Positions 24,050-30,688 of a stretch of DNA of 64,000 nt are shown here, in pieces. The stretch comes from Spizellomyces punctatus DAOM BR117 (Eukaryota), in assembly GCA_000182565.2 (NCBI GenBank), contig KQ257455.1, one strand, 5' to 3'. How positions within the stretch are numbered: the first letter of the stretch is position 1; each line of letters starts with the position of its first letter. Position numbers and translations under genes: made by a program. Under the pieces are notes generated by a model. That model was not told the DNA's origin and did not search any database. It worked only from the letters and a program-made list of their open reading frames with translations.

Positions 24050-25975
24050 ATGAGCGGTCGCGCCTATCCTTTCCCGTACTCTCTGGTGGTCGGCAGTCGT
24101 CAGCCACCAGAGGCTACGTTACGTCTCAGCGCTGTAGATCCGCTCACGGAACCCATTGAACCGATCATTGCTGAGACCTGTAAACCACTCCTGGAAACCG
24201 ATCTCACATCTTTCAAAAACAGTCAAAGTTACTTGGAACCTACTCAAGAGGTAGAAGGTCAACATGATGACAGCGAAAGACGTCCTGTTGTCCTGCATGA
24301 AGGCAGATCCAGTTCACCTGGATCGGAGCTAGCGGCCAACCAAGGCCATGATTTAGGCCAACTGAGTGAGGAAGCGATGAATGACACTGAGCGTACTCCA
24401 CAAAAGGAAGAGTTTCCATTCCGTCTGCCTAATCTATTGGAGGCACATCTACGAAGGCAGGCTTTACAAGAAGCGCAAAAGCAAAACCCGAGCCTACCTC
24501 ACACTCGAATATTGTATGCCAATTTTTCCCGGGTACAATATAGAAAACCCAACAAGCCGCCATCGCCAAAGCAAGACACTCCCAATGATGTTCAATCTGA
24601 GCCGATCAAGATTGTTCGGGAAGCGAAAAGGCGCAGAGTAAAGCGCGTTGCGAAGTTGGCTCCCATGCGTTTTACAGGTGGTGCCCCGAAGAAAGAAGCC
24701 GTGACTGTTCAGCCGAAGAGTGCATATCGCAGTGCAGAGTCCGAGGGTACAACTGGCAAAGTTCCAGCGAGACCATCTTCTGTACAACTGGCGCATCCCA
24801 AGTCTACCCACCAAGCAGCAGGATCTTCGACTGTCGCCGAACCTCAATCAGTTGCAGAACGCCGCCTGTCGGCCTCACCGCATGCGTTCCGCGGATTCGT
24901 AGCTAGTAACCCTACAGTCTCTAGGCGACCTTCTATCAATCCAACTGAAATCACAATGATTACACAAGGACGCCGCACATCAAATGTCTTTGGGGTGGAC
25001 AGCCAGTTTGGAACAGGTAATCAAAAACAGGAACGGTCAAGGCGAACTAGTCTGTTCAGTTCTCCTAGTAGCGCTCGACGGCGTATGTCGGTAGATAGCT
25101 TTAGCGGAGCCTTCCGGCCGAGATCTACCCGGAGAAGAAGAGGTGGTCCCTCAAATACTCCAGCTCGCGAAGAGCAGCTCCTGGAATGTGATCATATTCT
25201 GTCAGCTTTCGAGGAAAAGTATTTGTTTATTCGACGAGAAGTGGTTGAGCGCGCCATTCTGAGACCAGAAGAAATCATTCGCTTACCACCGACAATGCCA
25301 GCATATGGGGACGCCAGTGAGATAGTAGCATCCTCGGTCGCGACCCGCTCGCAGGCGGCGAATGTCGAGGATAATCGTGATGACGATATCATACAACGAC
25401 CTCCTCGCCGACGAAGTTTACTTGTTAAACCAGCTGTGGTGTTACGAGAGTCCCTCTCGGACATTGATATGTCTAGATCAAACTCTCCGAAGGTGAACTC
25501 TTGGTGGTCACGAGCAGAATTAAAATTGCTACGAGCTCGATTACGAGCATTTAAGGACGGTCATTATCAAAAACCAGCCTTCGTGAAACAAGAAGATGGT
25601 TCAGATGGTGCGCCTTTTTCGCTCTCTTTCGCCAATAGTCGATATTCGCTAGATAGAACTGGCGTAACTTTCACTCCACCTCGAGCGCCATCATCCTTGA
25701 GAGCAAGATCCGCCTTCACCCGACGTTTGCAAGCGAACGTCGGACGACCTTCCCAAGAACCGATGACACAGAATACTTATGCCGCTCGTCGTCGAACAAT
25801 ATCAGTTTTTGATGCGTATGTTTTGCCAATTGCATCGCCTCAACGACCGCGATCAGTGACAGGATCGATTCTTACGGATGGAAGAAATACACCCACAGCC
25901 GAACGTAGGAGTCCCATCTCGGAGCTTCGATCTAAAGGTCAACCGCTGTGGGGTATCACTGTCAAGTTACACTAG
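24050..25975 (+). CDS. Hypothetical 641-aa, mostly disordered Ser/Arg/Pro-rich protein
   Basis: Single 1.9-kb uninterrupted ORF; no family recognised; may have upstream exons. Confidence 0.7.
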   Translation: MSGRAYPFPYSLVVGSRQPPEATLRLSAVDPLTEPIEPIIAETCKPLLETDLTSFKNSQSYLEPTQEVEGQHDDSERRPVVLHEGRSSSPGSELAANQGHDLGQLSEEAMNDTERTPQKEEFPFRLPNLLEAHLRRQALQEAQKQNPSLPHTRILYANFSRVQYRKPNKPPSPKQDTPNDVQSEPIKIVREAKRRRVKRVAKLAPMRFTGGAPKKEAVTVQPKSAYRSAESEGTTGKVPARPSSVQLAHPKSTHQAAGSSTVAEPQSVAERRLSASPHAFRGFVASNPTVSRRPSINPTEITMITQGRRTSNVFGVDSQFGTGNQKQERSRRTSLFSSPSSARRRMSVDSFSGAFRPRSTRRRRGGPSNTPAREEQLLECDHILSAFEEKYLFIRREVVERAILRPEEIIRLPPTMPAYGDASEIVASSVATRSQAANVEDNRDDDIIQRPPRRRSLLVKPAVVLRESLSDIDMSRSNSPKVNSWWSRAELKLLRARLRAFKDGHYQKPAFVKQEDGSDGAPFSLSFANSRYSLDRTGVTFTPPRAPSSLRARSAFTRRLQANVGRPSQEPMTQNTYAARRRTISVFDAYVLPIASPQRPRSVTGSILTDGRNTPTAERRSPISELRSKGQPLWGITVKLH

Positions 25976-26244
25976 TCGGTGGACCGCACACTCCAATTTG
26001 GTAATACATTTAGAAAGGGGGAAATCGATAGTTGCTTCCAAAGGAGATCCTGCCTTAGATAGGGGCAGTCTAGTTGTGGTGTATTGGCCTACAGGCAAAA
26101 CAGTGGGTTGTCATATAGCTTCAGTAGCATGAACCGATAAAGCTGTATTTTCATGGTTTCATTCAATTCATGAGAGACTCCAATATAACCGGATACACAC
26201 TGCAGCAAGCTTTACAAATTGATCACTAAAGTGCCGCAGGACAA

Positions 26245-29200
26245 TTATTGTTTTATCCCACACTCTGCTATATGTTTTTTGAGGCTTGGAATGTTGCGGC
26301 ATTCGGTTTTGCATCGATGGCACAGCAACGGGCCTTTCAACATTGCCTCGTAAGTCGCTTCATTGTACTTGAATAAAACGTCAGTTATAAGGGCCCAGTG
26401 CAGCTGCCGACCCGCTCTAACATATGACGTAACCCTCACCCGCACTTGGCCCTTTGCGTCTAGCATAGATCGAACCGTATCGAAGTCAAGAAAAAACTGT
26501 GAGGTAAATGAGTTCCAGTGCTTCTTGTTCTTCAGCGCCGCCGAGTCGAAATCTTGGCTGATAACATGCATGTGGAGCTGCCTGTTACATTTGATCAAAG
26601 CTAGATATGTGAAAGGCTTCCTTTTGCATCCCGGTATCTGGACCACACACCTCATACTAGGAATGGCGTGAAACCCGATGCGAAATTCTAGCGAAGCATC
26701 TTTCTTACGCATCTCGTTCACGACCTCATCCGCCTTTCGTTTCATGCTATCCAAAAGAGGTAAATCTTCTCTCGATAAGACCGCAAGCCCGTCACGGGGT
26801 TGCCTCGGAAGAATTAAGAGATGCTTTTTTGCCTATCAACCAGTATGAAAATCTCGGAAGTCGAGCTGAAGATGAGATCACAGCGGTTGTCTGCACCTTG
26901 GGATACTTGTCCCGGATGACAACTAAATGATCATCGTAGGATAACACATCCTGGGGGTGCTGTTCGGGATGCAGGCAGTACGGTCTAAGAGCGTCATTCC
27001 ATCTTCCTCCAGATTTGGGCATATCGGCCACATCTGCTTCGTCACCGAGAGATACGGGAGTTCTCGGCTGTGACATTAAAACACTGACTGTATAAAAGTC
27101 TCAACAATGATCCATTAAGATCAATCATCTCAACGCACAACTGTGCACTTACATGCGTTCTTTGTGTCGGTGGTACGATCCGATGTGGTCAATCCCCTCA
27201 GATCAGCGAAGGAGTTGAAGATTGCCTTGTACACCGTCTCAAGCTTTGCAACAGCATCATCGTCATTACTAAGACAATCAGGTCTCTTTGGGTTTAAATT
27301 TGGTCCAACCACATGAATGACCTGTACGACTATCAGCACAGGCTCGGTACTTTGGAGACAGAGAAGATAACCTGTTCAACATGCTCGTCCATGAACAGAG
27401 GCGATGTACTTTCTACAGGTACGGGATACGCTTTGCCAATCTGCACGTCAATCACCAACGTACGTTAAATTGCAAGCTAATGTGCATGAAGCAAGCCGTT
27501 CAAACCTCAGCTGGTTTCGGATAGAGCTGTTTAGCTGACTGCATTAGCTCCACGCCCGCGCGTTCATGCACCGCCTTACAGCTTGCGGTTGCCGCTGCAT
27601 AAATTGATGAGAAGTTTGATCCTTTAAGTGATACTGCAGGGTTTCGCTACATACACGGTTTCCACCTCCATGATGTTTCTACAACAATTGCCCGACATGC
27701 CAGTCCTTGTGATGTGTGCATTCTAGATATGTCGCCTTGAATGACTCGAAAACGCGGTAGGTCTGCCAACCGCTATGACAGACAATTGAGTTGAGTGGCG
27801 GTAAGATTTCATGTCGCACATTGCTGAAATCTAAATGAATGGGAGGAATGTCAACCTTGTTACCTGATGAAATTGATTCAAAATGGCCTCGTTAGCGTCA
27901 ACAAGGACGCATTCAACATTGAGCCATGTGGGGAGGCTAAGAAACTCGCGAATGATTTTCGATGCACACTCTGCTGCTTTATCTACGTCAAATTGGCCTT
28001 CGGTTGTTGAAATTGATGCAACGGCAATTCTATCTAGCAAACCTCGTCAAAAGGCAGCATGTATTTGAAAGATTTCCATTACCCACCAACACCATGATCT
28101 GTGTGGTTGGAATCATCGACTCGTTTGTTATCTGGTAGTCTACTCTGCCGTACATCCCCAAGACTTTGACAGGTCTCACCAGAATCATTGGTGTTGATCG
28201 GTATCTTCTGGTCGGCATCGCCTTGGTCAGCCTCAGTGTCCTTATCCTCGACAGAGGAACGACTCAAAACCGGAGGTAGGTTTGTTACGGGGCTGGAGAT
28301 CTTGATAGGGTTTGGTATATTCGACGATACGTCCTTCTCGTTCACCCCACCATCATCTTCTTCGTCACGGTAACTAACCTTGCGTGTTGCAGACGATCTG
28401 CTCGATCGCCGAGTTTTTACATCCCCTGTTGAGGTACCGCTTTTCGTTAGCTTGGCATTCAACTGGGAGGAGTCTTTATCGAGCCAAGGATGTGCAAACT
28501 CTGCAAAATGCATAGGATTCTTGCGGTAGCATGATTGTCCATACTTGCAGACTCGCCTTGAGTCCACATCATCCAGCAGGTCGTCTGGTCCTTCCATTTC
28601 GTCCTCGTCTTCGTCTTCTTCATATTCAACGTCCTCATCAGAGACGACGAAATCGGGATCATCCGGATCGTAATAGTCGTCCTGATCTTGATCGATGGAT
28701 CTACGCCTCCTGTTACGCAGTGTCGCTTTCACATCCTGTACTTTTGTAGAGGATCGTCCGTGCACACGCCTTTTCGAAACTCGTTCATCATCATCATCCG
28801 TCGTTCCCGGTGGCCGCTTCTTTCCAGCGATGGCCGATGGTTGCCCGTCCAAGAGTTTAACTTCGATCTGGTAGTAATGCTCCCCTTGTAGCTGTCATGC
28901 ATCGTTTAATGAGTCTGAGTACCACAGCTAAACGCATCCGACGAACTGGGCAAAGTAAACACACTAAGAAAAAACCGTCGCCGCTTCGGAGTTCAAATTC
29001 ATTGTCTTTCCCGACAGCTTCTTCAGCAGCCCCGTCAATCCGCACAAATGAGTCATTGGGACCTAGCTGTCGTATAGTGATTGAGCCAGTCTCGTTATTG
29101 TATTTCAATTGTACTGTAAACTCTGTGGTTAGAAAAGAACTGTTTCACGGCCAAGTGTGCATTGCTGTCGCACCCTGCTGTCTGCTGCATCGTTTGGTTT

Positions 29201-29306
29201 CCACGCCCCATATTTTCCGCCCCAAAATGATTATTCCTTCCTTGTCCTTTTCCGCTTCCAAGAGATGGCGTTCGCCATTGTCCTCTATAAGAGAAATTGC
29301 GTACAT
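26245..29306 (-). CDS. APTX: Multidomain aprataxin: FHA - acidic tract - PBZ - circularly permuted macrodomain - HIT - Zn finger
   Basis: FHA IILGRK..KRCSRQQ..RQLGPNDS; PBZ CKYGQSCYRKNPMHFAEFAHP; macro IQGDIS and VIHVVGPNLNPKRPD; HIT VVIRDKYPKAKKHLLILP, GFHAIPSMRQLHMHVISQDF, KHWNSFT; ZnF CHRC..PSLKKHIAEC. All joined in frame by GT-AG introns. Confidence 0.9.
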
Positions 29307-29507
29307 TGCTCCTTCAGCGATCTTCCGGAAGGAAGTTGGCTGGTGACGTTGGATGGGCACATTCGAATGTCCATGGAACTCAATTTCAATCCCTAAAAGG
29401 ATATGGCTACAACCCAGCCAGTCTCACGAAAATCGCGAGGGGGACGCAACGAGCAACATCTTTCATCTCAACGAGCAGAATTTAACCTGAACAGGGGATC
29501 TTCTTTG

Positions 29508-30688
29508 ATGATGGCATACAGCGGTAATTCTGCTCCAATCCCCCCCGCTGGGGATGCCCCTCCGCCTCCTCCAGCACCTTACGGTGCTCCACGAGGTAAT
29601 CGCGATCGGTCCCGTTCCCCGGGCGCTCGCCGCAGATCCATGTCTCCTCGAGGTGGACGTAGATCGCCTTCTCCACGCGGTGGACGTCCTCACCCACAAT
29701 ACTACGACTCTCGTGGGCCTGCGCCCTATGATGGTCGTGGCTACGAACCTCCTTACGAGCGCGGTTACGGTGGTTACGATCGAGGGTATGAGGGTCGAGG
29801 CGGATATCCTCCTAGAGGCAGTTATGGAGGCTACGGTGGACGTTATGAAGAAGGCTATGGAGGCCGCTATGGCGGCGGAGGCGGCGGCTACAGGCGCCGT
29901 AGCCCGCCCCCGAGGAGACGTTATGAAGTGATAAAGTGCGTATACCTGGCTTTTTGTCGCTGCTCCATTCACAATATCAATGATACTTTTTCAGAGGAAA
30001 TGACGAACAGCGACAAACGACGTCCTGTCTGTACGTCGGAAATCTGCCCTACAGTTTCCGTGAAGAAGACGGTAAATTGCATTGAATGAGCTGTCCTGTG
30101 CAGTCGAGGTACTGATCGTTACTTGCATAGTCCAAGATCTTTTCGACCGCTACGGAAGGCTGCGTAGTGTTTCTGTGCCATTCGATCGCTTTACTGGCCG
30201 TAACAAAGGGTATTACCTCAGACGTTTCGTTATTTTTCCCCTCAGCATCTGTCTCATGAGTTCACGTTGCCAGCTTCGCTTTTGTCGCTTACGAAGATCG
30301 CCGCGATGCCGAAGATGCCAAAAATAAGTAAGCAGGAATGACTACCCTAGCAAGCGCAATTACTGTGAAGAATGACCGTGTTGTCCTGGTGTAGGTACGA
30401 TGGATTTCTCGTCGAAGGTCGTCGTTTGAAAATCGACTGGGACATTGGTCTCGACAAGAAGGATGAGATCAAATCCACTACGCGCCCAGCTCGCGGTGCG
30501 CCCGGTGATGACTTTGGCAGGGACCGTCCGCGCTCTCCCCCGCCTGCTCCTGCTGGTGAGTTCAACACGGTTTCCAGTCATTTCGGCGGTCTGCTTATCA
30601 TTGTGTTCATTTAGCAGGCCGGCGTTCACCTCAGTACAGTCCGTACAGAAGGCGGTCTCCGAGCCCCTTCGGCGCTCGTCATCCCTAA
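29508..30688 (+). CDS. RS/RGG-rich single-RRM RNA-binding protein (SR/Tra2-like)
   Basis: RSRSP repeats and GGY/RG tracts; RNP2 LYVGNLPY, RNP1 KGFAFVAY, YDGFLVEGRRLKIDWD; RS tail. Confidence 0.88.

What the first reader, a model, noticed from the sequence alone, without database searches (positions are those of the whole stretch)
26245..29306. One gene fuses FHA, PBZ, macrodomain and aprataxin HIT-ZnF: a predicted ADP-ribose-guided DNA end-repair protein
Seen: the ORF track shows this as many fragments, but canonical introns join them in frame (GFFL|LQGEHYY, DHGV|DRIAVAS, KNA|FSVLMSQP, YPK|AKKH). The order is FHA (about 28860-29306), acidic tract, PBZ (about 28484-28550), macrodomain (about 27190-28035), HIT (about 26440-27005) and Zn finger. 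Known, from recall: yeast Hnt3 is HIT-ZnF only; animal APTX is FHA-HIT-ZnF; plant APTX has macro-HIT-ZnF; APLF has FHA and PBZ; Dictyostelium APL has FHA-PBZ-macro without HIT. Inference: this protein combines all of these modules. It would couple phospho-XRCC1/XRCC4 binding and two ADP-ribose readers directly to DNA 5'-deadenylation, and may reflect an ancestral architecture that split in other lineages. I do not know of a description of this combination in fungi.
Basis: partly seen in the sequence, partly recalled or inferred. Interest (0 to 1): 0.82.

Follow-up and report, generated by a model that had tools for sequence, protein, structure and literature searches.

The report
Chytrid aprataxin with FHA, PBZ, macrodomain
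This is one real 12-exon gene of the chytrid fungus Spizellomyces punctatus that joins a DNA-end-cleaning enzyme (aprataxin) to three damage-site docking modules, a layout already sitting unnamed in databases, shared by many chytrids and a glaucophyte alga, and apparently never discussed in print.

Summary
Observation confirmed. Window 29306-26245 (minus strand) is a 12-exon, 11-intron (all GT-AG, 50-91 nt) gene. Its translation is letter for letter the 779-aa GenBank protein SPPG_03918 of Spizellomyces punctatus DAOM BR117, which UniRef names 'Aprataxin'.

One chain carries five modules:
- an APTX/PNKP-type FHA;
- one PBZ zinc finger;
- a circularly permuted 'APL-type' macrodomain (E 5.5e-28 to rice 5LW0);
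- an aprataxin HIT domain;
- a zinc finger (E 2.8e-40 to human APTX).

The AlphaFold model shows four confident folded units on disordered linkers.

The layout is not unique. My profiles found it in 17 of 267 pooled relatives: 14 chytrid proteins, one metagenome protein and two transcripts of the glaucophyte Gloeochaete. Partial versions occur in Amoebozoa, plants, Euglena, Rhodelphis and animals.

Its ADP-ribose binding is therefore uncertain.

I found no RNA data. I found no paper describing this architecture, and one survey says PBZ could not be found in Fungi.

Verdict: a real gene, a new variant of a known kind, of moderate interest.

The parts
26245..29306 (-). Whole CDS of the aprataxin gene (SPPG_03918), 779 aa. 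It has 12 exons: 29306-29174, 29113-28965, 28891-28087, 28033-27864, 27772-27655, 27594-27506, 27440-27372, 27321-27153, 27087-26897, 26832-26651, 26581-26440 and 26367-26245 (stop included). The 11 introns are GT-AG and 50-91 nt long.
   Evidence: the spliced translation equals P0121 exactly. One search gives its accession and names.
28853..29306 (-). FHA domain of the APTX/PNKP/APLF type (aa 1-107), split by introns 1 and 2. The phosphopeptide-contact motifs are kept: G-R (LGRK), S-R (CSRQQ) and G-x-N (GPN).
   Evidence: Pfam FHA_2 8.6e-8, above its cut-off. phmmer to human APTX FHA 3kt9 2.5e-6 and PNKP FHA 2w3o 1e-5. Motif columns. Model pLDDT 92-98. Foldseek TMt 0.78-0.86 to the PNKP, APTX and APLF FHA domains.
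28562..28825 (-). Disordered linker 1: a basic stretch (aa 117-160, Lys/Arg-rich) followed by an acidic tract (aa 161-204). The acidic tract holds the conserved short motif YYDPDDPDFVV (aa 167-177, window 28675-28643).
   Evidence: pLDDT under 50 for aa 111-166 and 175-202. The motif was found in 11 of 282 pooled proteins, all Spizellomycetales or Rhizophlyctidales.
28484..28555 (-). PBZ (poly-ADP-ribose-binding zinc finger), aa 207-230, with ligands C209-x5-C215-x6-H222-x5-H228 and the CYRKNP core.
   Evidence: Pfam zf-CCHH 2.5e-12 on the exon alone and 1.4e-11 on P0121. phmmer to the APLF PBZ structures 2kuo and 2kqb at about 1e-11. Sequence printed.
28100..28462 (-). Disordered linker 2 (aa 238-358), Ser/Asp-rich and poorly conserved.
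   Evidence: pLDDT under 50 for aa 241-350 and 352-358. Identity to ten chytrid orthologs (P0002 set aside) is 5-26%.
27187..28099 (-). APL-type (circularly permuted) macrodomain, aa 359-556, spread over exons 3-8. D433 matches rice D175. Gly375 sits at the place of rice F113. S459-A460-T461-A462 replaces the rice GGGG loop.
   Evidence: phmmer to 5lw0_A 5.5e-28 and to 5lw6_A 3.9e-13. Foldseek TMt 0.87, rmsd 1.6 to 5lw0_A. pLDDT 91-98. Pocket columns. Pfam Macro is below its cut-off at 19.9 bits.
26512..27016 (-). Aprataxin HIT domain, aa 592-715. It holds DKYPKAKKH (K631, H635), GFH686 and the triad region Q693-L-H695-M-H697-VIS.
   Evidence: Pfam DcpS_C 9.6e-27 and HIT 1.6e-12. phmmer to human APTX 4ndf 2.8e-40, with the alignment shown. 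Foldseek TMt 0.93. Nearly invariant columns.
26248..26511 (-). Aprataxin C-terminal zinc finger, aa 716-779, with ligands C755-x2-C758-x12-H771-x3-C775.
   Evidence: Pfam zf-C2HE 1.9e-15. Aligned to the human APTX zinc finger. C755 and C758 are nearly invariant.
28595..28597 (-). ATG of Met193, the start of the annotated 587-aa 'variant' product (P0001 / XP_016608849.1), which lacks the FHA domain.

Best explanation
The locus is the single aprataxin gene of Spizellomyces punctatus.

Shown here. One spliced reading frame encodes, from N to C:
- an APTX/PNKP-type FHA domain;
- a basic-then-acidic disordered linker;
- one PBZ finger;
- a second disordered linker;
- a circularly permuted APL-type macrodomain;
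- a short linker;
- a HIT-zinc-finger catalytic core that aligns with and superposes on human aprataxin.

Inferred from the families. The HIT-ZnF core removes 5'-AMP left on DNA (and RNA-DNA) ends by abortive ligation, using His695 as nucleophile. The three N-terminal modules act as independent tethers on flexible linkers that concentrate the enzyme at breaks. The FHA binds CK2-phosphorylated Ser/Thr-acidic motifs of XRCC1/XRCC4-type scaffolds. The PBZ binds poly(ADP-ribose) made by PARPs. The macrodomain adds a second contact. That contact is ADP-ribose or the PAR terminus if the pocket still works, and something else if it does not.

The layout equals Dictyostelium APL (FHA-PBZ-macro) joined to aprataxin (HIT-ZnF). 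It is the standard form in Chytridiomycota and is probably older than fungi.
For: One gene. The spliced product is identical to the 779-aa GenBank protein. Introns are 50-91 nt, and the gene sits between a convergent ORF ending at 25975 and a divergent ORF about 220 nt upstream. The same collinear order was found in 14 chytrid proteins and in two Gloeochaete transcripts assembled from RNA.

Domains. The AlphaFold model has 484 of 779 residues at pLDDT 90 or more, in four folded units. Foldseek gives human APTX TMt 0.93, rice APL macro TMt 0.87 and PNKP/APTX/APLF FHA TMt 0.78-0.86.

Catalytic and ligand residues are kept: K631, H635, H686, H695, H697, C755, C758, H771 and C775; the FHA G-R, S-R and G-x-N motifs; and the PBZ C-x5-C-x6-H-x5-H pattern.

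Selection acts on every module. Against ten chytrid orthologs (P0002 set aside), identity is 21-46% for FHA, 40-67% for PBZ, 30-47% for macro and 44-60% for HIT, but 2-31% in the three linkers.

Function of relatives. The APL macro and PBZ bind PAR in vitro, and the rice macro was crystallised with ADP-ribose (PMC5087659, section 6).
Against: A 587-aa 'variant' that starts at Met193 and lacks the FHA domain is also annotated.

The macro pocket departs from the ADP-ribose-bound rice structure. F113, called 'absolutely conserved' by Gunn et al., is Gly375 here. NAAN reads VETS, and GGGG reads SATA. In three Chytridiales orthologs (P0122, P0123, P0127) the D175-equivalent position is Ser. Pfam Macro stays under its cut-off.

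Whether S. punctatus has XRCC1/XRCC4 partners or PARPs could not be checked, because no genome is held.

No activity was measured. AlphaFold and Foldseek agreement may partly reflect learned structures of these well-known folds.
Confidence: 0.8

Rival explanations
1. The macrodomain of the fungal clade no longer reads ADP-ribose. It is kept as a structural or protein-binding module, or binds another ligand, so the protein has one PAR reader (the PBZ), not two.
For: Gly375 stands at the F113 place, and the Gly-rich loop 1 and the NAAN Asn are lost. The same changes appear in the other chytrid, Glomeromycota, Piromyces and Jimgerdemannia rows. The D175 equivalent is Ser in 3 of the 13 named chytrid rows shown. 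Pfam Macro is below its cut-off.
Against: The domain is as conserved as the FHA (30-47% against linkers at 2-31%). D433 is kept in S. punctatus. The Dictyostelium APL macro also lacks the GGG loop (alignment) yet binds PAR in vitro (PMC5087659, section 6). An aromatic residue (F377) lies two places after Gly375 and might fill the pocket.
Confidence: 0.35
2. The five-module layout is not ancestral. FHA-PBZ was fused to macro-HIT-ZnF separately in chytrids and in glaucophytes, or it moved between them, or the Gloeochaete transcripts come from a contaminant.
For: Domain shuffling among FHA, PBZ and macro is frequent in repair proteins. Outside chytrids the full layout was found only in one glaucophyte and one metagenome protein. 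The Pfam FHA_2 score of the Gloeochaete protein is below its cut-off (19.9 bits). The FHA tree is unresolved and puts the Gloeochaete FHA away from the chytrid FHAs. MMETSP-type transcriptomes can hold foreign RNA (recalled).
Against: The module order is the same everywhere. In the macro+HIT-ZnF tree the 25 fungal rows form one side of a branch (SH-aLRT 95), and Gloeochaete lies on the other side with plants, Euglena and unnamed protists, so it is not a chytrid contaminant. Intermediate layouts occur in Amoebozoa (FHA-PBZ-macro), Rhodelphis (FHA-PBZ-HIT-ZnF), Marchantia and Diphasiastrum (PBZ-kinase-macro-HIT-ZnF) and Euglena (FHA-macro-HIT-ZnF by my profiles, with the FHA not confirmed by Pfam).
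Confidence: 0.35
3. In the cell the locus mainly makes shorter products, so the five-module chain is a minor or artefactual model. Candidates are the FHA-less 587-aa protein from Met193, or separate FHA-PBZ and macro-HIT messages.
For: GenBank holds a 587-aa 'variant'. Several ortholog models lack the FHA (Gaertneriomyces P0004, Cladochytrium P0134) or the C-terminus (Geranomyces michiganensis P0196).
Against: Intron 3 between the two halves is only 53 nt, and the frame is phase-consistent. The variant still joins PBZ, macro and HIT-ZnF. 14 chytrid models and 2 RNA-derived Gloeochaete ORFs hold all modules. The FHA is under constraint.
Confidence: 0.1

Closest known systems
Animal aprataxin (human APTX; PDB 4ndf, 6cv*, FHA 3kt9)
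   Same: Both have an N-terminal FHA_2-type FHA and a C-terminal HIT plus zinc finger. The HIT-ZnF core is 40-42% identical with TMt 0.93. The DKYPKA..H, GxH and HxHVIS motifs are kept.
   Different: Animal APTX has no PBZ and no macrodomain (Pfam lists). The first His of the human triad region is Gln693 here, which is the majority state in the 52-sequence alignment. The fourth zinc ligand is Cys here, where the aligned human residue is His.
Dictyostelium APL (DDB_G0293866 / Q54B72; PDB 5lw6), Gunn et al. 2016, PMC5087659
   Same: Both have FHA, then PBZ, then a circularly permuted macrodomain, in this order. The macro matches at phmmer 3.9e-13 and TMt 0.72. Both lack the GGG loop.
   Different: APL ends after the macrodomain and has no HIT-ZnF. 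APL keeps the aromatic residue at the F113 place, whereas the chytrid protein has Gly375.
Plant aprataxin-like proteins ('bHLH140'; rice Q10MW4, PDB 5lw0)
   Same: Both have a permuted APL macro followed by HIT-ZnF. This is the best macro match (5.5e-28, 34% identity, TMt 0.87).
   Different: Plants carry an N-terminal P-loop kinase domain (AAA_33) instead of an FHA. Marchantia and Diphasiastrum also have an N-terminal PBZ. The plant macro keeps NAAN, GGGG and F113.
APLF (aprataxin and PNK-like factor)
   Same: Both have an FHA_2 domain and a PBZ, with an acidic region.
   Different: APLF has no macro and no HIT-ZnF. Human APLF has two PBZ fingers (the two matched stretches in 2kuo and 2kqb). 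The APLF FHAs form their own starred clade apart from the chytrid FHAs, although the rest of that tree is weak.
Yeast Hnt3 (S. pombe aprataxin; PDB 3spd, 3szq)
   Same: HIT-ZnF deadenylase core (1.4e-20, TMt 0.72).
   Different: The solved S. pombe chains are about 200 aa of HIT-ZnF only. Other non-chytrid fungi in my pool (Glomeromycota, Jimgerdemannia, Piromyces) keep macro-HIT-ZnF without FHA or PBZ.

Membership tests
Aprataxin (APTX/Hnt3) HIT-ZnF deadenylases | HIT / DcpS_C-type domain scoring above the curated Pfam cut-offs | tested here: met
   DcpS_C scores 94.2 bits (cut-off 24) and HIT scores 48.3 bits (cut-off 21.5) on P0121.
Aprataxin (APTX/Hnt3) HIT-ZnF deadenylases | Catalytic histidines of the triad region and the upstream GxH and DKYPK..H motifs | tested here: met
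   H695, H697, H686, K631 and H635 align with the human residues and are nearly invariant in 52 sequences. The human residue numbers used in the report are recalled.
Aprataxin (APTX/Hnt3) HIT-ZnF deadenylases | C-terminal C2HE/C2H2/C2HC zinc finger packed on the HIT domain | tested here: met
   zf-C2HE scores 57.4 bits (cut-off 30.1). The ligands are C755, C758, H771 and C775. The whole HIT-ZnF unit superposes on human APTX with TMt 0.93.
Aprataxin (APTX/Hnt3) HIT-ZnF deadenylases | 5'-AMP-DNA / RNA-DNA deadenylase activity | not testable with these tools
   This needs an enzyme assay.
FHA_2 (APTX/PNKP/APLF-type FHA) | Profile match above the cut-off, and the fold | tested here: met
   FHA_2 scores 32.5 bits (cut-off 23.1). 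pLDDT is 92-98. TMt is 0.78-0.86 to the PNKP, APTX and APLF FHA structures.
FHA_2 (APTX/PNKP/APLF-type FHA) | Phosphopeptide-contact Arg (G-R), Ser-Arg (S-R) and Asn (G-x-N) | tested here: met
   LGRK, CSRQQ and GPN align with the same motifs of human APTX and PNKP.
FHA_2 (APTX/PNKP/APLF-type FHA) | Binding to CK2-phosphorylated XRCC1/XRCC4, and presence of such partners in the organism | not tested
   No genome is held for the window. Binding needs a bench assay.
PBZ (zf-CCHH) PAR-binding zinc finger | C-x5-C-x6-H-x5-H with the C-Y-R-K-N-P core, above the Pfam cut-off | tested here: met
   zf-CCHH scores 44.6 bits (cut-off 22.7). The ligands are C209, C215, H222 and H228. phmmer to the APLF PBZ is about 1e-11.
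PBZ (zf-CCHH) PAR-binding zinc finger | PAR binding | not testable with these tools
   This needs a binding assay.
APL-type circularly permuted macrodomain (Gunn et al. 2016) | Collinear homology to the permuted macrodomains 5lw0 and 5lw6 over the whole domain, with the macro fold | tested here: met
   5.5e-28 over residues 3-188 of the 212 queried, against 38-227 of 5lw0_A; 3.9e-13 to 5lw6_A. TMt 0.87 and 0.72. In relatives, Pfam Macro profile positions 85-118 lie N-terminal to positions 2-87 (P0252; P0075 and P0009).
APL-type circularly permuted macrodomain (Gunn et al. 2016) | Acidic residue equivalent to rice D175 / Dictyostelium E439 | tested here: met
   D433 in IQGDIS aligns with the rice GDIT Asp. 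The mapping of the paper's numbers onto the chain (offset 65) is my inference.
APL-type circularly permuted macrodomain (Gunn et al. 2016) | Aromatic residue equivalent to rice F113 (distal-ribose pocket), called 'absolutely conserved' in PMC5087659 | tested here: not met
   Gly375 aligns with it. In one search the position is Gly in 9 of the 13 named chytrid rows and in the metagenome row P0126; it is Asn in two, Tyr in one and Cys in one.
APL-type circularly permuted macrodomain (Gunn et al. 2016) | Gly-rich diphosphate loop 1, as in the ADP-ribose-bound rice structure | tested here: not met
   Rice PGGGGVN aligns with PSATASC here. Dictyostelium APL also lacks this loop, so it does not define the whole family.
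APL-type circularly permuted macrodomain (Gunn et al. 2016) | ADP-ribose / PAR binding | not testable with these tools
   This needs ITC or a dot blot.
Pfam Macro (PF01661) | Score at or above the gathering cut-off | tested here: not met
   19.9 bits on P0121 and 20.8 on P0001, against a cut-off of 22. This is expected for a permuted domain.
Dictyostelium APL as a protein (FHA-PBZ-macro, no catalytic domain) | The chain ends after the macrodomain | tested here: not met
   HIT-ZnF follows the macro in the same reading frame.

The most novel reading that the evidence does not exclude
FHA-PBZ-permuted macro-HIT-ZnF is the ancestral eukaryotic aprataxin, dating to before the split of Amorphea and Archaeplastida. 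Chytrids and glaucophytes are living holders of it. Animal APTX arose by losing PBZ and macro, amoebozoan APL by losing HIT-ZnF, plant APTX-like by swapping the FHA for a kinase, macro-HIT-ZnF of Glomeromycota, Endogonales and Neocallimastigomycota by losing FHA and PBZ, and yeast Hnt3 by losing all tethers. It would also mean that PAR-guided recruitment of aprataxin existed in early fungi, against the published statement that PBZ could not be found in Fungi.
Probability: 0.4. Interest if true: 0.6.

Novelty: new variant of a known kind. Interest (0 to 1): 0.45.

Why it matters
First, it links two proteins studied separately, Dictyostelium APL and aprataxin, as halves of one chain. That gives a concrete hypothesis for how the differing aprataxin layouts of animals, plants, amoebae and yeasts arose.

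Second, it places a clear PBZ finger in Fungi. Perina et al. [quoted passage not shown] Their main text names no chytrid: 0 occurrences of 'chytrid', 'Batrachochytrium' or 'Spizellomyces'.

Third, Spizellomyces punctatus can be transformed (PMC7213984; title and start of abstract seen in the listing). Recruitment of one enzyme by three different tethers could therefore be dissected in one organism.

Fourth, the fungal form of the APL macrodomain, with its altered pocket, is a natural test of which residues this permuted fold needs for ADP-ribose binding.

It is not a new kind of system. Every module and its general role are known.

Tried and rejected
RNA evidence. The look-up of sequencing runs listed no RNA holder. 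It gave only three small runs of one sample, of unknown kind. Laid on the region, their 7 contig pieces are collinear with the genome through introns (for example 26999-27516 and 27943-28481), at depth about 2 and with no joints. This says nothing about expression or splicing.

Whole genome. None is held, so PARP, XRCC1, XRCC4, PNKP, APLF or a second aprataxin in S. punctatus could not be sought.

Earlier findings.

Pfam on single exon ORFs. It found PBZ, DcpS_C and zf-C2HE, but only a sub-threshold FHA_2 (0.15) and no Macro, because introns split those domains. Full-length database proteins were used instead.

Word-indexed searches. The search with the FHA-PBZ region and the search with the 52-sequence profile each returned 13 proteins. 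These were mostly known chytrids and vertebrate APLF. They added only Thoreauomyces and Borealophlyctis.

FHA tree. Of 38 inner branches, 5 are starred and 19 are open. Chytrid FHAs sit with animal APTX FHAs at SH-aLRT 81 only, so I do not use the tree as evidence of origin.

Rhodelphis. My macro profile found no macrodomain in the 188-398 gap. It may be lost or too divergent.

HGT paper. I considered that PMC5982333 might concern this family. Its 'macro domain' gene is a Macro_2 protein and is unrelated.

Literature. Searches for a description of this architecture found only Gunn et al. 2016, for dictyostelids and plants. Supplementary files were not opened.


Full report
**What is in the sequence**

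The stop-to-stop ORF list for 25500-30200 shows the minus strand broken into many short frames.

A search with the last of these frames (window 26245-26832) returned a 587-aa protein of Spizellomyces punctatus DAOM BR117 (P0001, 'hypothetical protein, variant'). An exact spliced mapping places P0001 on the window as 10 exons joined by 9 GT-AG introns.

I then enumerated GT/AG pairs upstream and kept the model that agrees with the ortholog of Spizellomyces 'palustris' (P0002). That added two exons and gave a 779-aa product. Twenty other open combinations existed. They differ by short insertions or deletions at the two junctions.

The cluster look-up then showed a second member, P0121, with these properties:
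- 779 aa;
- XP_016608850.1, locus SPPG_03918;
- UniRef100_A0A0L0HH69, named 'Aprataxin'.

My model translates to P0121 exactly. The gene runs from the ATG at 29306 to the stop ending at 26245. It has 12 exons and 11 introns of 50-91 nt.

The gene is tightly bounded. A plus-strand ORF ends at 25975. Another plus-strand ORF, rich in Arg/Ser/Gly with a weak RRM hit further on, begins about 220 nt upstream of the ATG.

**The modules**

On P0121, Pfam gives the following:

| Family | Residues | E-value | Bits (cut-off) |
|---|---|---|---|
| FHA_2 | 26-67 | 8.6e-8 | 32.5 (23.1) |
| PBZ (zf-CCHH) | 207-230 | 1.4e-11 | 44.6 (22.7) |
| Macro | 465-546 | 7.5e-4 | 19.9 (22) |
| DcpS_C | 609-713 | 9.6e-27 | 94.2 (24) |
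| HIT | 610-702 | 1.6e-12 | 48.3 (21.5) |
| zf-C2HE | 718-775 | 1.9e-15 | 57.4 (30.1) |

Only Macro falls below its cut-off.

Against solved structures by sequence:
- residues 596-773 match human aprataxin 4ndf at 2.8e-40;
- the macro region matches 5lw0_A at 5.5e-28 and 5lw6_A (DDB_G0293866) at 3.9e-13;
- the PBZ matches the APLF fingers 2kuo and 2kqb at about 1e-11;
- the N-terminus matches the human APTX FHA 3kt9 at 2.5e-6 and the PNKP FHA 2w3o at 1e-5.

An AlphaFold2 model was built on a 52-sequence alignment (A1). Its mean pLDDT is 77.6 and pTM is 0.42. 484 of 779 residues have pLDDT 90 or more. The confident units are aa 1-110, about 203-240, 359-556 and 595-779. The segments 111-166, 175-202, 241-350, 352-358 and 561-594 are below 50. 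The picture is four folded beads on three disordered linkers.

Foldseek against the PDB gives the following:
- human APTX: TMt 0.91-0.94, 40-42% identity;
- 'Oryza sativa APL macrodomain in complex with ADP-ribose' (5lw0_A): TMt 0.87, rmsd 1.6;
- the Dictyostelium macro (5lw6): TMt 0.72;
- S. pombe Hnt3: TMt 0.72-0.73;
- the FHA domains of PNKP, APTX and APLF: TMt 0.73-0.86.

These folds are well represented among solved structures, so part of this agreement may come from what the predictor has learned.

**What kind of macrodomain**

5lw0 and 5lw6 come from Gunn et al. 2016 (PMC5087659; I read the abstract, section 6 and passages of the introduction and discussion). That paper reports the following:
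- Dictyostelium APL is FHA-PBZ-macro, and its macrodomain is circularly permuted.
- The same permuted domain is found in Arabidopsis and rice, where it is fused to aprataxin and polynucleotide-kinase domains.
- Both the macro and the PBZ of APL bind PAR in vitro.
- No hydrolase activity was detected.
- D175 (E439 in Dictyostelium) and F113 are named as key pocket residues, and F113 is called 'absolutely conserved'.

I mapped the paper's numbers onto chain 5lw0_A with an offset of 65. Only this offset puts a Phe at position 113 and an Asp at position 175. The mapping is my inference.

The phmmer alignment and the family alignment then show three things:
- D433 is at the D175 place.
- Gly375 is at the F113 place.
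- Rice NAAN...PGGGGVN reads VETS...PSATASC here.

At the F113 place, 9 of the 13 named chytrid rows shown and the metagenome row P0126 have Gly. Two rows have Asn, one has Tyr (Synchytrium) and one has Cys.

At the D175 place, Phlyctochytrium bullatum, Dinochytrium and P. planicorne have Ser.

Glomeromycota, Piromyces and Jimgerdemannia share the loss of the Gly-rich loop. Plants, Balamuthia, Soliformovum and two unnamed relatives keep the aromatic residue and a glycine-containing loop.

The fold and the family membership are therefore secure. ADP-ribose binding by the fungal form is open. Dictyostelium APL, which also lacks the GGG loop, still binds PAR.

**Other residues**

FHA. LGRK, CSRQQ and GPN align with the phosphopeptide-contact motifs of APTX and PNKP.

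PBZ. The ligands are C209-x5-C215-x6-H222-x5-H228, around CYRKNP.

HIT. DKYPKAKKH, GFH686 and Q693-L-H695-M-H697-V-I-S align with human DKYPKARYH, GYH and H-V-H-L-H-V-I-S. The human numbers are recalled: K197, R199, H201, H251, H258, H260 as nucleophile, and H262. The variant names in the PDB titles agree with some of them. Gln at the first triad position is the majority state in the 52-sequence alignment (consensus).

Zinc finger. The ligands are C755-x2-C758-x12-H771-x3-C775.

**Constraint on each module**

The figures below are identities of P0121 to ten chytrid orthologs, with the near-identical P0002 set aside.

| Region | Identity (%) |
|---|---|
| FHA | 21-46 |
| PBZ | 40-67 |
| macro | 30-47 |
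| HIT | 44-60 |
| ZnF | 15-60 |
| linker 1 | 4-31 |
| linker 2 | 5-26 |
| linker 3 | 2-25 |

**Is it one message?**

The case for one message rests on these points:
- the deposited 779-aa model;
- the 53-nt intron 3 between the 'APL half' and the 'aprataxin half';
- the annotated variant, which still joins PBZ, macro and HIT-ZnF;
- the same order in many species (below);
- two Gloeochaete ORFs that come from transcript assemblies.

The 587-aa variant from Met193 remains a possible FHA-less isoform.

**How widespread is it?**

The pool is not a random sample. It holds:
- the best 120 of 373 hits to the HIT-ZnF ORF among proteins of 343-2000 aa;
- the best 150 of 2322 hits to P0121 in the 50%-identity representative library;
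- a few cluster members.

Single-sequence phmmer with four pieces of P0121 found all four pieces in order in 14 of 256 proteins.

Profiles built from those hits gave the following on 267 proteins:

| Layout | Proteins |
|---|---|
| FHA-PBZ-macro-HIT/ZnF | 17 |
| PBZ-macro-HIT/ZnF | 12 |
| FHA-macro-HIT/ZnF | 11 |
| FHA-PBZ-HIT/ZnF | 4 |
| FHA-PBZ-macro | 2 |
| PBZ-macro | 2 |
| macro-HIT/ZnF | 72 |
| FHA-HIT/ZnF | 90 |
| HIT/ZnF only | 57 |

These profile E-values refer to a small pool, and the seed sequences match by construction.

The 17 full-layout proteins are named, with taxonomy:
- 14 chytrid proteins: Spizellomyces punctatus, S. 'palustris', Powellomyces hirtus, three from Geranomyces variabilis, two from Rhizophlyctis rosea, Zopfochytrium, Irineochytrium, Dinochytrium, Phlyctochytrium bullatum, P. 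planicorne and Synchytrium microbalum;
- one metagenome protein (P0126);
- two transcripts of the glaucophyte Gloeochaete wittrockiana (P0138, P0257).

Pfam checks:
- P0126 scores FHA_2 51.4 bits and PBZ 44.6 bits.
- Synchytrium scores FHA_2 23.5 bits, just above the cut-off.
- Gloeochaete scores PBZ 48.1 bits but FHA_2 only 19.9 bits, below the cut-off.

Partial layouts in named organisms:
- Soliformovum (Amoebozoa): FHA-PBZ-macro.
- Rhodelphis: FHA-PBZ-gap-HIT-ZnF.
- Euglena: FHA-macro-HIT-ZnF by my profiles. Pfam lists neither FHA nor Macro for it, and its zf-C2HE is below the cut-off.
- Marchantia and Diphasiastrum: PBZ-AAA_33-Macro-HIT, with the zinc finger confirmed in Marchantia.
- Balamuthia: macro-HIT-ZnF, with a short FHA-like N-terminal match by my profile only.
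- Glomeromycota, Jimgerdemannia and Piromyces: macro-HIT-ZnF.
- Capsaspora and vertebrates: FHA-HIT-ZnF.

**Trees**

The first tree uses macro plus HIT-ZnF: 46 rows, 390 columns, quick search, SH-aLRT only.
- The 25 fungal rows (16 chytrid, 7 Glomeromycota, Jimgerdemannia, Piromyces) fall on one side of a branch (support 95).
- Land plants form a clade with two unnamed rows inside it (support 100).
- Balamuthia sits with three unnamed rows (support 94).
- Gloeochaete is on the non-fungal side (smallest starred set 21 rows, support 95), on a long branch.

This fits vertical descent of the macro-HIT-ZnF core. It argues against the Gloeochaete sequence being a chytrid contaminant. Seven rows have long branches, and the method was the quick one.

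The second tree uses the FHA alone: 41 rows, 111 columns. It is largely unresolved, and I do not lean on it.

**Reading**

The best-supported account is a single aprataxin whose deadenylase core is tethered by an FHA, a PBZ and a permuted macrodomain.

Shown here: the gene structure, the domains, the key residues, conservation of each module, and the distribution.

Inferred from the families: deadenylation of 5'-AMP ends, FHA binding to phosphorylated scaffold proteins, and PAR binding by the PBZ.

Open: whether the macro binds ADP-ribose, which isoform dominates, and whether the five-module layout is ancestral (my estimate is about 0.4) or was assembled more than once.

**What is known**

The protein itself is in GenBank as 'hypothetical protein' and in UniRef as 'Aprataxin'.

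Eight text searches found no paper that describes this layout in fungi. The only paper on the permuted macrodomain is Gunn et al. 2016. In the passages I searched it mentions dictyostelids and plants, and it has 0 occurrences of 'fungi' or 'chytrid'.

Perina et al. 2014 (PMC4245714, passages read) state that PBZ 'could not be found' in Fungi. Their main text names no chytrid. The library does not hold most subscription journals, and I did not open supplements, so a description elsewhere cannot be excluded.

Lees-Miller et al. 2020 (PMC8021618, passages read) list chytrids among fungi that keep DNA-PKcs. This fits chytrids retaining repair factors lost in yeasts.

**Verdict**

The finding is real and was correctly read. 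The layout is a new variant of known kinds: aprataxin plus APL. It is common in chytrids and already deposited in databases. Interest is moderate (0.45).

Noticed in passing
window 28675-28643 (aa 167-177 of the protein): The acidic linker upstream of the PBZ holds a strictly conserved short motif, [YF][YF]DP[DE]DPxFVV (here YYDPDDPDFVV), preceded by Ser/Asp runs. It occurs in 11 of 282 pooled proteins, all Spizellomycetales or Rhizophlyctidales. It was not found in the Chytridiales, Synchytrium, Gloeochaete or APLF rows I checked. pLDDT rises slightly there. It may be a docking motif; a histone- or partner-binding role is only a guess.
   Followed up: partly
window 28597 (Met193) and upstream exons: GenBank carries a second product of the same gene: 587 aa, labelled 'variant' (XP_016608849.1). 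It starts at Met193 inside exon 3 and lacks the FHA domain. Whether it reflects a real alternative 5' end is unknown.
   Followed up: partly
window 26245-26832: Introns 10 (69 nt) and 11 (72 nt) are multiples of three and contain no in-frame stop, so exons 10-12 read as one 195-aa open frame. Retaining them would insert 23 residues next to the histidine triad and 24 residues before the zinc finger. The sister-species model P0002 appears to read on past the exon 11 / intron 11 junction. Its C-terminus diverges there, and Pfam finds no zf-C2HE in it.
   Followed up: partly
proteins P0009, P0054, P0058, P0118 and others: Many plant proteins, and Rhizophagus clarus P0009, carry the name 'transcription factor bHLH140'. 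Pfam, run on P0009 and P0059, shows macro-HIT-ZnF aprataxin relatives and no bHLH domain. The name looks like a propagated misnomer.
   Followed up: partly
protein P0014 (Gigaspora margarita, 908 aa): A PRKCSH / OS-9-like domain (aa 144-228) precedes macro-HIT-ZnF in one model. This is probably two neighbouring genes merged by the annotation.
   Followed up: no
window 29397-30330, plus strand: The divergent neighbour starts about 220 nt from the aprataxin ATG. It has a Pro-rich start, then Arg/Ser and Gly/Tyr/Arg repeats, then a weak RRM_1 match (0.01, below the cut-off) in the next frame. It is probably an SR/RGG-type RNA-binding protein that shares a short bidirectional promoter region.
   Followed up: partly
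window 24050-25975, plus strand: A long open frame of 641 aa, rich in Ser, Arg and Pro, has no Pfam match. It ends 270 nt from the aprataxin stop codon, in convergent orientation.
   Followed up: no
proteins P0136 (Marchantia paleacea) and P0207 (Diphasiastrum complanatum): Early-diverging land plants have a PBZ finger at the very N-terminus of the kinase-macro-HIT protein (Pfam 2.5e-11 and 9e-12). The angiosperm protein I scanned (Arabidopsis lyrata P0059) shows none. Gunn et al. describe the plant fusion as macro with aprataxin and kinase domains only.
   Followed up: partly
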